From NCBI RefSeq assembly GCF_030013595.1, contig NZ_CP122768.1: DNA of 64,000 nucleotides; one strand, written 5' to 3'. The position numbers are program-made. This DNA comes from Escherichia coli (GTDB taxonomy: Bacteria; Pseudomonadota; Gammaproteobacteria; Enterobacterales; Enterobacteriaceae). Shown here in pieces: positions 45,601 to 48,600 of the stretch. Position 1 is the stretch's first letter. Every line of letters begins with the position of its first letter.

Positions 45601-48600
45601 ATTTCACCGGCGGCGACTTTCGCTTTTAGCTGCTCGTAATATTCATAAACATCGTGATCCGGGCACCACCAGTTCGCTTGCTGGTTTTTCAGCAAATCGG
45701 AGCCCCACAGCACAATGGTTTTGCTGTTCTGCAATACCAGCGGCCAGGAGGTTTGCTGTTCATACACTTCCATCGAACCGACTACGCGCGGCAGGATCAC
45801 CTGCGCAGCACCGGTAGAGTAATCTCCGCCCGTACCAACGCTATTACCATGCAAGGCAATCGCTTTCGCCAGCATCCCCGAAGCGTTATGGAACATCCCC
45901 GTCGATTGCCAACCACTGGCGGTCAGCAAGGCACTCGGCCCGTGCGTTTTCTGCACACGTTCCAGTTCTTCATAGAACATGTCGAGGGCTTCATCCCAAC
46001 TCACGCGCACAAAACGGTTATCACCGCGCTGGGAGGTGTCGCTCAGATGGCGCTTACGCAGCCAGTCCACACGTACCATCGGGTAACGAATACGCGCCGC
46101 GTTGTGTACGTGATCCGGCAATCCGGCGATCATTTTCGACGGATATTTATCCAGTTCGAACGGTTTTGCCGCCACAAAGCGACCATCCTTCACCGTCGCG
46201 CGGATAGCCCCCCAGTGCGACCCGGTAAGAATGCCCTCTTTCGAGGTGACAGCCTCAGTCGCCGCTTGCGCCGCAGTCGCACTGCGCGGCGTTAACAATG
46301 ACGGCCCCAGCATCCCGGCGACGGTTAAGCCGCCGAGTTGTGCCAGAAAACGCCGACGTGATGCCTGAAAGAGATCGTTATTGTTCATTATTTTTCTTCC
46401 TTCTTATCGCCGTGAGCCTTACCTGCGGTGTCAGACGCATTCATTTGCAGATATTTCAACAAGGTGCGTTCTTCACGTTTATCGAGGCTGGTAAAGCCAA
46501 TCATGCCGTTGAGCGTGCCGATCCAACCGTTAGCGTCAAAGTGAGAGATTTCCGGTGCGCCGTGGCACTGGTTACAGGTGCCGTTGTACAACGAATCAGC
46601 ATAAGCCCAGATCGGTTTGATATCGTTCACCATGTCACCTTTCTTCATCCACGCAGTGGCCTGCAACTTGCTCCACTCGGTATCAGTGTCGGCAACGGTG
46701 GTTTTCTCCAGCGTTTTCACCTGCTGCTGCACATCACCACGAATCGAGGCAACAAAGATGCGTTTGCCAGGGAACTGGGTGAGTACACGCTGACGTCCGG
46801 CGCTTTCTGTCCAGCCGGTAATTTCAATTTGCAGCCAGTCGCCGTCACGTTTAAGGACTTTCACTTCCGAGGCAGGCAGCAGAGAACCAGAGGCTTCTTT
46901 ATCGCCTTTCGCCGCATAAATCGGCTTAATATCAATGGAGTACAGTGTGTCGCCACTGCCATTAGCACTGGCGCGCAGCTCATCGAACTGCTTACGGAAG
47001 CCGCTACTCATATCCGGCAACTGGTGGGCAATACCTTTATGACAGTCGATGCAGGATTGATTATCTTTCGCTGCCACCTTCATCTGACGCGCCGCTTCAG
47101 GATGCTGCTTCGCATGATCCATCGCGTCGTAGTTATGGCAGGAGCGGCAGGTTGCCGAGTTGTTTTCTTTCATTCGCGCCCATTCACGCTCGGCAAGTTC
47201 CGCGCGTTTGGCTTCGAATTTTTCAGGTGTATCAATAGAGTGGGCAATAAAGGTCTGGTAGATATCGTTGCTCGCTTCCAGTTTGCGCTTCACCATGCCT
47301 GGAATATCCGGCGGGATATGACAGTCATGGCATTCAGCTCGCACGCCAGAGGCGTTCTGGAAATGCACCGACTGTTTATATTCTTCATACACCGGTTGCA
47401 TACTGTGGCAACTGACACAAAATTCGGTTGTGCTGGTGACTTTGATCCCAACGTGTGGCAATACAATCAGCGCAATGCCAATCACAATCCCAATAGCGAC
47501 CAGCGCCAGTACCGACCAACGAGCACTGGGTCGGCGTAGCGCGTTCCAGAATTTCCGCATAATAGCCCCTGTAAAATTATGGTTTAGTGAAGCGATCTTA
47601 ATGAGTAAATATGAACAGCGGCACTGGTCAGGATGAACGGCTTACGGCAGAATATGAACAGATATGAACAGAATGAGTAAAACTCTCTGATGCCACATCA
47701 CATTGTTATTGTTGAAGATGAGCCGGTTACCCAGGCGCGATTACAATCCTACTTCACTCAGGAGGGGTATACCGTTTCCGTTACGGCGAGCGGTGCCGGG
47801 CTGCGGGAAATTATGCAGAATCAGCCGGTGGATTTAATTCTGCTGGATATCAATTTGCCCGATGAAAATGGCCTGATGTTAACTCGCGCCCTGCGAGAAC
47901 GCTCAACGGTAGGGATTATTCTGGTTACCGGACGCAGCGATCGGATTGACCGTATTGTTGGGCTGGAAATGGGTGCAGACGATTATGTCACCAAACCGCT
48001 GGAACTGCGCGAACTGGTGGTACGAGTGAAAAATCTGCTCTGGCGAATCGACCTCGCGCGACAGGCGCAACCACTCACTCAGGACAACTGCTATCGCTTT
48101 GCGGGTTATTGCCTGAATGTGTCGCGCCATACGCTGGAGCGAGATGGCGAGCCAATTAAACTGACCCGCGCAGAGTATGAAATGTTGGTGGCATTTGTGA
48201 CGAATCCGGGCGAAATTCTCAGCCGTGAACGTCTGCTGCGTATGCTTTCTGCGCGTCGGGTGGAAAACCCTGACCTGCGCACCGTCGATGTGTTAATTCG
48301 TCGTTTACGCCATAAACTCAGCGCGGATTTACTGGTGACACAACATGGCGAAGGTTATTTCTTAGCCGCTGATGTGTGCTGATAAAAATAGACCGGACGA
48401 AATCCCCCTGGTGACAGCGAGCGGCGGATATGTTCACGGTCAGCATTTTTCGGCGTCATGACTAAAATCGGTGGGCTGACATTATCAGACACCGATTGCC
48501 CCTGTAATTGCCTGATGGCCTGCTCAACCGCCAGTTCCCCCTGCCAGACCATTTGATCGCTGGCAGCCATAATCACTCTTCCCCGCTTCAGCCCGCGATA

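What the first reader, a model, noticed from the sequence alone, without database searches (positions are those of the whole stretch)
47609..47671. Four tor boxes including a perfect tandem pair
The decamers ATATGAACAG x3 and ATGAACGG are arranged as expected for TorR high- and low-affinity sites controlling torCAD and torR autoregulation. This is a known feature, recorded because it is directly visible in the sequence.
Basis: partly seen in the sequence, partly recalled or inferred. Interest (0 to 1): 0.2.

Follow-up and report, generated by a model that had tools for sequence, protein, structure and literature searches.

The report
TorR binding sites (tor boxes)

Summary
ATATGAACAG (CTGTTCATAT on the torC strand) occurs three times in the 64-kb window, against 0.15 expected. 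All three copies lie in one orientation within 63 bp: 47609-18, 47652-61 and 47662-71. A 7/10 copy (CCGTTCATCC on the torC strand) lies at 47631-40.

The stretch sits in the 129-bp spacer between torC (- strand, ATG at 47560) and torR (+ strand, ATG at 47690) of an E. coli chromosome, with torA, torD, torT and torS alongside. All four boxes and their spacings (10, 21 and 22 bp) match E. coli K-12 MG1655 and the published box sequences. The 63-bp module is unchanged in 5100 of 5415 complete E. coli genomes. The same layout, with a conserved TAAGAT -10 hexamer 8 bp past box 4, precedes torC in Salmonella, Edwardsiella and Providencia. Grimontia keeps the box offsets but has TACTAT there.

Taking torC +1 at 47588 (derived), the boxes span -83/-74, -73/-64, -52/-43 and -30/-21.

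This is already known and of low interest. One side observation: the tandem pair varies in copy number (1, 2 or 3) among natural E. coli; this window has the usual two.

The parts
47662..47671 (-). tor box 1 (CTGTTCATAT on the torC strand). It is the distal half of the high-affinity TorR site and lies 18 bp from the torR ATG. Derived position relative to torC +1: -83 to -74.
47652..47661 (-). tor box 2 (CTGTTCATAT), abutting box 1. Derived position -73 to -64. The inferred torR transcription start (~47660) falls at the box 2/box 1 junction.
   Evidence: torR start inferred from sequence
47631..47640 (-). tor box 3 (CCGTTCATCC, 7/10), a low-affinity site. Derived position -52 to -43. It starts 21 bp after the start of box 2.
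   Evidence: The GTTCA core is invariant at the same offset in 14 regulatory regions from 5 genera.
47609..47618 (-). tor box 4 (CTGTTCATAT), the promoter-proximal site. It starts 22 bp after box 3 and ends 8 bp before the -10 hexamer. Derived position -30 to -21.
47595..47600 (-). torC promoter -10 hexamer TAAGAT. There is no recognisable -35 hexamer (TGCCGC occupies -35 to -30).
   Evidence: PMC10845959 places the -10 within TTGCT(N4)AAGAT. TAAGAT is identical and at the same distance from box 4 in Escherichia, Salmonella, Edwardsiella and Providencia; Grimontia has TACTAT there. The consensus scan found no sigma-70 promoter.
47588..47588 (-). torC transcription start (+1), derived. It is an A lying 7 nt after the -10 hexamer and 28 nt before the ATG.
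   Evidence: Derived from PMC10845959: +48 lies about 20 bp inside the coding region. This agrees with the conserved -10. I did not read it from the original mapping paper.
46388..47560 (-). torC, the pentaheme c-type cytochrome and first gene of the activated torCAD operon
43842..46388 (-). torA, TMAO reductase
43246..43845 (-). torD, the TorA-specific chaperone. The annotated 199-aa form starts at 43845.
47690..48382 (+). torR, the OmpR-family response regulator that binds the boxes. It is intact (230 aa).
47625..47630 (+). Inferred torR promoter -35 (TGGTCA), between box 4 and box 3. On the torC strand it is the conserved TGACCA.
   Evidence: Inference from sequence. TGACCAGT is conserved in all Enterobacterales loci except for one substitution in P. 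alcalifaciens.
47648..47653 (+). Inferred torR promoter -10 (CAGAAT), 17 bp after the -35 and overlapping the first two bases of box 2
   Evidence: Inference from sequence. The CA..AT positions are kept in all Enterobacterales loci.
48355..49383 (-). torT, the periplasmic TMAO-binding protein of the sensing system
49466..52210 (+). torS, the hybrid sensor kinase that phosphorylates TorR. It is intact here.

Best explanation
The stretch is the TorR operator of the E. coli tor locus: four direct decameric repeats (tor boxes 1-4) in the 129-bp spacer between the divergent torR gene and torCAD operon. TorT binds TMAO in the periplasm and TorS then phosphorylates TorR. TorR is an OmpR/PhoB-type winged-helix regulator. 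It occupies the abutting box 1-box 2 pair with high affinity whether or not it is phosphorylated. That pair lies over the torR transcription start, so its occupancy represses torR (negative autoregulation). It also nucleates cooperative binding of phospho-TorR to box 3 and box 4, which lie two and four helical turns further on, on the same face of the DNA. Box 4 ends 8 bp upstream of a weak -10 (TAAGAT) at a promoter that has no -35 hexamer. TorR bound there therefore substitutes for the -35 contact and recruits RNA polymerase to transcribe torCAD.

Shown here: the sequence, position, spacing, gene context, identity to K-12, and conservation across genera.
Taken from papers read here: the box sequences; TorR binding to boxes 1, 2 and 4 but not to box 3 alone; phosphorylation-independent binding to this spacer only; the location of the -10.
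Recalled from Simon et al. 1995 and Ansaldi et al. 2000, which I could not read: the footprints, the torR start lying inside box 1-box 2, and the helical-phase requirement.
Inferred: the torR -35 and -10 hexamers and the RNA polymerase recruitment step.
For: - Three exact decamers plus one 7/10 copy, all in one orientation within 63 bp, against 0.15 expected in the whole window.
- The flanking proteins are equivalog-level TorC, TorR, TorA, TorD, TorT and TorS. RefSeq annotation agrees.
- MG1655 is identical at every box position and has no indel between box 1 and the torC ATG.
- The published box sequences are CTGTTCATAT (boxes 1, 2, 4) and CCGTTCATCC (box 3). EMSA gave Kd values of about 1-3 uM for boxes 1, 2 and 4 and no shift for box 3 alone (PMC9239176).
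- Genomic SELEX found a single TorR peak in the E. coli genome, in the torR/torC spacer, with and without acetyl phosphate (PMC5934670).
- The 63-bp module is unchanged in 5100 of 5415 complete E. coli genomes.
- The exact tandem 20-mer occurs in 15 proteobacterial genomes of 5 genera, always just upstream of a torC homologue and, wherever the flank is available, divergent from a torR homologue.
- In those loci box 3 and box 4 sit at offsets +31 and +53. The one exception has a 10-bp (one helical turn) insertion.
- Invariant columns: box 3 5/10, box 4 7/10, the -10 hexamer 4/6, against 0-1 in each spacer.
- PMC10845959 places the torC -10 in ...AAGAT, reports TorR-P binding to the promoter, and found no binding by ArcA-P or FNR.
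Against: No evidence argues against this reading, but it has limits.
- No binding or transcription experiment can be done with these tools.
- The original footprint and autoregulation papers are not in the held library, so the box positions relative to +1 are derived, not read.
- With +1 at 47588, box 4 covers -30 to -21. It therefore abuts the canonical -35 hexamer position and does not cover it.
- The simple promoter scan reports no sigma-70 promoter on either strand. That is expected for an activator-dependent promoter, but it gives no independent support.
- Conservation of boxes 1 and 2 in the cross-genus set is imposed by the search pattern, so only box 3, box 4 and the -10 are unbiased.
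Confidence: 0.96

Rival explanations
1. The repeats are chance matches or a neutral slippage product (a micro-tandem repeat) with no regulatory role.
For: The abutting pair does behave like a slippage-prone repeat. Complete E. coli genomes include 1-copy alleles (14 genomes) and 3-copy alleles (74-78 genomes). The same 20-mer also occurs in five unrelated MAGs that have no tor genes.
Against: Three exact copies against 0.15 expected, with 0 of 100 shuffles reaching 3. The positions are fixed relative to torC and to the -10 in five genera, while the spacers between the boxes diverge. 94% of E. coli genomes carry the identical 63 bp. TorR binding is published.
Confidence: 0.01
2. The decamers are mainly the target of another DNA-binding factor, such as ArcA (same regulator family), FNR, NarL, or the DndCDE phosphorothioation complex that recognises GAAC/GTTC. 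On this reading TorR would be secondary.
For: PMC10845959 notes ArcA-like motifs overlapping the TorR sites and an FNR-like half-site pair near the -10. PMC9239176 shows DndCDE binding the boxes and competing with TorR in a dnd+ Salmonella. NarL is listed as a repressor of torCAD.
Against: ArcA-P and FNR did not bind the torCAD promoter in PMC10845959. DndCDE binds more weakly (Kd 4-6 uM against 1-3 uM) and matters only in strains that carry dnd. I did not come across dnd genes in the parts of this window I examined, but I ran no dedicated search for them. The FNR-like TTGCT half-site is TTACT in this window. TorR gives a single genome-wide SELEX peak at this spacer.
Confidence: 0.03

Closest known systems
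tor boxes 1-4 of the E. coli K-12 torR-torCAD intergenic region (Simon et al. 1995, Mol Microbiol 17:971; Ansaldi et al. 2000, J Bacteriol 182:961)
   Same: All four box sequences, their orientation, the 10/21/22-bp start-to-start spacings, the 129-bp spacer length, the distance to the torC ATG and the flanking genes are the same.
   Different: There are only four single-base differences in the spacer, all outside the boxes: 47684, 47606, 47574 and 47565. There is also one in torC codon 4. None changes a spacing.
Salmonella enterica tor boxes (PMC9239176)
   Same: The same four box sequences are reported, and TorR binding was shown by EMSA. The S. arizonae and S. diarizonae loci fetched here show the same offsets.
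   Different: The spacer sequences and the torC leader differ. In dnd+ Salmonella, DndCDE competes for the boxes.
PhoB pho boxes and OmpR sites at ompF/ompC (OmpR/PhoB-family direct-repeat operators; from general knowledge)
   Same: A winged-helix response regulator binds head-to-tail direct repeats with roughly 10-11 bp periodicity. The proximal site lies next to a promoter that has a -10 but no -35. Occupancy is hierarchical and cooperative, running from high-affinity to low-affinity sites. TorR scores against the OmpR, PhoB and ArcA models below their cut-offs, as a paralogue would.
   Different: The repeat sequence differs. The tor low-affinity sites are isolated decamers two helical turns apart, not abutting pairs. 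The high-affinity pair also serves as the autorepression operator of the divergent regulator gene.

Membership tests
tor boxes (TorR operator of torCAD/torR) | Decameric motif CTGTTCATAT present as direct repeats, all in the torC orientation | tested here: met
   Three exact copies plus CCGTTCATCC (7/10), all on the torC strand. They match the published sequences.
tor boxes (TorR operator of torCAD/torR) | Located in the short spacer between divergently transcribed torR and torC | tested here: met
   torC ATG at 47560 (-) and torR ATG at 47690 (+). Both proteins pass the equivalog cut-offs, and RefSeq annotation agrees.
tor boxes (TorR operator of torCAD/torR) | Box 1 and box 2 abut as a tandem pair (the high-affinity site); box 3 and box 4 follow at whole numbers of helical turns | tested here: met
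   Start-to-start spacings are 10, 21 and 22 bp, identical to MG1655. The offsets 0/+10/+31/+53 are conserved in five genera, and the single exception differs by exactly 10 bp.
tor boxes (TorR operator of torCAD/torR) | Fixed position of box 4 next to the torC core promoter | tested here: met
   Box 4 ends 8 bp before the conserved TAAGAT -10. There is no indel relative to K-12. Numbering relative to +1 is derived, not read from the mapping paper.
tor boxes (TorR operator of torCAD/torR) | Box 1-box 2 covers the torR transcription start (the basis of autoregulation) | tested here: inconclusive
   A plausible torR promoter (TGGTCA, 17 bp, CAGAAT) would start transcription at about 47660, inside the pair, and its key positions are conserved. 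However, it scores below the scan threshold, and the paper that mapped the start could not be read.
tor boxes (TorR operator of torCAD/torR) | Physical binding by TorR (footprint or EMSA) | not testable with these tools
   Binding is published for identical box sequences (EMSA in PMC9239176; genomic SELEX in PMC5934670; TorR-P binding in PMC10845959).
tor boxes (TorR operator of torCAD/torR) | Cognate regulator and sensing proteins present and intact | tested here: met
   TorR aligns 1-230 of 231 model positions, TorT 1-339, and TorS to positions 2-913 of 914, all as open frames.
OmpR/PhoB-type activator sites at a promoter lacking a -35 | Winged-helix response regulator, direct repeats at about one helical turn, and a proximal site adjoining a promoter without a -35 hexamer | tested here: met
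   TorR matches the OmpR, PhoB and ArcA models as a paralogue. The repeat periodicity is 10/21/22 bp. No -35 consensus is present. The activation mechanism itself is inferred.

The most novel reading that the evidence does not exclude
The perfect box 1-box 2 tandem may be a slippage-prone micro-repeat whose copy number acts as a heritable tuning knob. In complete E. coli genomes the pair is reduced to one box in 14 genomes and expanded to three boxes in 74-78 genomes, for example O121 RM8352. Providencia vermicola carries a decayed third unit. If these alleles change TorR occupancy, they would alter both TMAO induction of torCAD and torR autorepression in natural lineages. This window carries the ordinary two-copy allele, so this reading concerns the element's population biology and not anything unusual in the window.
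Probability: 0.2. Interest if true: 0.35.

Novelty: already known. Interest (0 to 1): 0.07.

Why it matters
Biologically it adds nothing new. The tor boxes are a long-established model of hierarchical, cooperative response-regulator binding that couples activation of a respiratory operon to autorepression of the regulator gene. The only mildly new by-products are two. First, a cross-genus footprint shows that the box offsets are fixed from Escherichia to Grimontia, and the -10 hexamer is identical (TAAGAT) in the four Enterobacterales genera and TACTAT in Grimontia. Second, the tandem pair varies in copy number among natural E. coli genomes.

Tried and rejected
- The consensus promoter/terminator scan of 47450-47800 found nothing on either strand. 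This is uninformative for an activator-dependent promoter, so the core promoter was placed from the literature and conservation instead.
- Ansaldi et al. 2000 (PMC94371) is not held, and no open paper in the library gives box positions relative to +1. The positions were therefore derived from PMC10845959.
- A search for further tor boxes in the window, allowing up to 2 mismatches, gave 63 matches against 53.9 expected, which is chance level. Single-mismatch hits inside torC (47372-81) and torA (45756-65) were dismissed.
- Rfam at gathering thresholds finds no RNA family in the torR-torC spacer or the torC leader. The bis-MGD riboswitch proposed in PMC10845959 for the torC leader therefore has no curated model to test against, and I did not pursue it.
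- Five hits to the exact 20-mer in Bacteroidales, Lachnospiraceae, Clostridia and Synergistaceae MAGs have no TorR or TorC homologue and no box 3/box 4 at the conserved offsets. I rejected them as unrelated.
- ArcA, FNR and DndCDE were considered as alternative ligands and rejected on published binding data.

Full report
**Observation.** Reading 47300-47960 shows, on the + strand:
- ATATGAACAG at 47609-47618
- ATATGAACAG at 47652-47661
- ATATGAACAG at 47662-47671, abutting the previous copy to form a perfect 20-bp tandem

An exact search of both strands of the 64-kb window returns only these three decamers. The expectation is 0.15 +/- 0.41, and none of 100 dinucleotide-preserving shuffles reached three. 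Allowing two mismatches gives 63 matches against 53.9 expected, which is chance level, so the window holds no other cluster. The stated coordinates and the description are exact. The degenerate fourth copy is not significant on its own. By my estimate there is about a 0.08 chance of a 7/10-or-better match somewhere between the flanking boxes. Its standing comes from comparison with other genomes.

**Context.** The stretch lies in a 129-bp spacer between a 390-aa ORF on the - strand (ATG at 47560) and a 230-aa ORF on the + strand (ATG at 47690). NCBIfam assigns them at equivalog level:

| Protein | Score (bits) | Cut-off (bits) |
|---|---|---|
| TorC | 879 | 455 |
| TorR | 427 | 275 |

The neighbouring ORFs are TorA, TorD, TorT and TorS, all full length. 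A 451-bp query across the spacer matches 5416 of 5426 complete E. coli genomes, several at 100%, and all are annotated torC | torR. Over 25 kb the window is 99.9% identical to two pig isolates and at most 98.7% identical to every other genome. Gene order there is the usual putA-rut-wrbA-agp-yccE-cbpAM-torDAC-torR-torT-torS-yccM. The window is therefore E. coli chromosome, shown in the reverse orientation relative to K-12 numbering.

**Identity with the known element.** On the torC strand the boxes read CTGTTCATAT, CTGTTCATAT, CCGTTCATCC and CTGTTCATAT. PMC9239176 gives these same sequences for tor boxes 1, 2, 3 and 4. It reports EMSA Kd values of about 1-3 uM for boxes 1, 2 and 4 and no shift for box 3 alone, and describes box 3 as a low-affinity site matching 7 of 10 positions. 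Alignment with MG1655 (L002) shows every box position invariant and no indel anywhere between the torR ATG and the torC ATG. The differences are single bases outside the boxes at 47684, 47606, 47574 and 47565, plus one in torC codon 4. Start-to-start spacings are 10, 21 and 22 bp, that is one, two and two helical turns.

**Position relative to the promoters.** The original mapping and footprint papers are not in the held library, so I derived the numbering.
- PMC10845959 places the torC -10 inside TTGCT(N4)AAGAT. It also states that +48 lies about 20 bp inside the coding region.
- This puts +1 at the A 28 nt upstream of the ATG, window 47588. That base is 7 nt after TAAGAT (47600-47595).
- The boxes then span -83/-74, -73/-64, -52/-43 and -30/-21.
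- No -35 hexamer is present (TGCCGC occupies that position), and the consensus scan finds no sigma-70 promoter. Both fit an activator-dependent promoter.

On the other strand, TGGTCA (47625-30), a 17-bp spacer and CAGAAT (47648-53) form a plausible torR promoter. It would start transcription near 47660, at the box 2/box 1 junction. This is my inference. It agrees with my recollection of Ansaldi et al. 2000 that the high-affinity site covers the torR start.

**Comparative evidence.** The 63-bp module is unchanged in 5100 of 5415 complete E. coli genomes. A scan of one genome per species for the exact tandem 20-mer found 20 loci.
- Fifteen loci are from Escherichia, Salmonella (arizonae, diarizonae), Edwardsiella (four species), Providencia (three species) and Grimontia (two species).
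- In all fifteen the 20-mer lies just upstream of a torC homologue. Wherever the flank is available it is also divergent from a torR homologue.
- In fourteen of them, further tor-box-like decamers sit at +31 and +53. In Providencia vermicola they sit at +41 and +63, because a decayed third unit (TTATTCACAT) follows box 2, an insertion of exactly one helical turn.
- Boxes 1 and 2 are fixed by the search pattern, so they carry no information. Among the regions that are free to vary, box 3 has 5/10 invariant columns, box 4 has 7/10 and the -10 hexamer has 4/6, against 0-1 invariant columns in each spacer.
- The TGACCA that I read as the torR -35 is also conserved in the Enterobacterales loci, with one substitution in P. 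alcalifaciens.
- The five remaining hits are MAGs of Bacteroidales, Clostridia and Synergistaceae with no tor genes and no boxes at these offsets. They are unrelated.

**Mechanism.** The best-supported account is the established one.
1. TorT and TorS sense TMAO and phosphorylate TorR.
2. TorR binds this spacer and no other site in the E. coli genome, with or without acetyl phosphate (genomic SELEX, PMC5934670).
3. The abutting box 1-box 2 pair is the high-affinity site. It represses torR because it lies over the torR start.
4. Phospho-TorR then fills box 3 and box 4 cooperatively on the same helical face.
5. TorR at box 4, next to a promoter with a -10 but no -35, recruits RNA polymerase to torCAD.

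The cooperative filling and polymerase recruitment steps rest on my recollection of Simon et al. 1995 and Ansaldi et al. 2000 and on analogy with PhoB and OmpR. They were not tested here. The alternative ligands ArcA and FNR did not bind in PMC10845959. DndCDE competes for the boxes only in dnd+ Salmonella.

**Verdict.** The feature is already known and identical to the K-12 prototype, so interest is low.

**By-products.**
- The tandem pair is a copy-number polymorphism in natural E. coli. One box is present in 14 genomes (for example JNEC-KY204, which also has a G-to-A change in box 3). Three boxes are present in 74-78 genomes (for example O121 RM8352). The window has the common two-copy allele.
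- Elsewhere in the window an IS10 with a 9-bp target duplication splits pgaB.

Noticed in passing
window 15646-16974 (IS10); pgaB fragments 14535-15647 and 16956-17891: An IS10 element interrupts pgaB, splitting it into residues 1-370 and 367-671. The element has an IS4-family transposase of 402 aa at 15751-16959, an Rfam RNA-OUT match at 15689-15758, ends CTGATGAATCCCC... and ...GGGGATCTCTCAG, and a 9-bp target duplication GGTCTGGTT. PNAG deacetylation and export, and hence pga-dependent biofilm, are probably lost in this strain.
   Followed up: partly
L023 (E. coli JNEC-KY204), L024 (E. coli O121 RM8352), L009 (Providencia vermicola); corresponds to window 47652-47671: The box 1-box 2 tandem varies in copy number among complete E. 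coli genomes: one box in 14 genomes, three in 74-78, and two in the rest of about 5415. The one-copy allele occurs in strains of several serotypes (O157:H7, O45:H2). P. vermicola has a decayed third unit. Functional consequences are untested.
   Followed up: partly
window 47606, 47574, 47565, 47551, 47684: These are single-base differences from MG1655 around the boxes. The A at 47606 turns the TTGCT 'FNR-like half-site' discussed in PMC10845959 into TTACT. Two changes lie in the torC 5' leader, where that paper proposes a bis-MGD-responsive element. TorC residue 4 is Phe instead of Leu.
   Followed up: no
window 30000-54999: Only 2 of 5426 complete E. coli genomes (pig isolates HCP5S3_I2 and LCP30S3_I5) are at least 99% identical over this 25 kb, and the rest are at most 98.7% identical. 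The source strain therefore belongs to a sparsely sampled lineage. The best match differs by a 66-bp indel somewhere between 30000 and 43246.
   Followed up: no
window 53916-54338 (-), 43156-43234 (+), 19678-19871 (+): Rfam gathering-level matches: the cspA-type thermoregulator leader (upstream of cspG), naRNA4 (a REP-derived element between cbpM and torD), and Ysr251 (overlapping the phoH region).
   Followed up: no
L006 2278-2307 (Lachnospiraceae MAG), also L004, L010, L012, L018: The exact 20-mer CTGTTCATATCTGTTCATAT also occurs in five unrelated gut or anaerobe MAGs with no torR or torC. One has three tandem units (the third is CTGTTCATCT). Five such hits is more than the roughly 0.5 expected for a random 20-mer in 298 Gb. 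I take them to be unrelated short tandem repeats.
   Followed up: partly
summary (E. coli genomes): Six of the 5419 matches to the torC-torR spacer are on records labelled as plasmids, and a few genomes hold two copies. I did not examine them.
   Followed up: no
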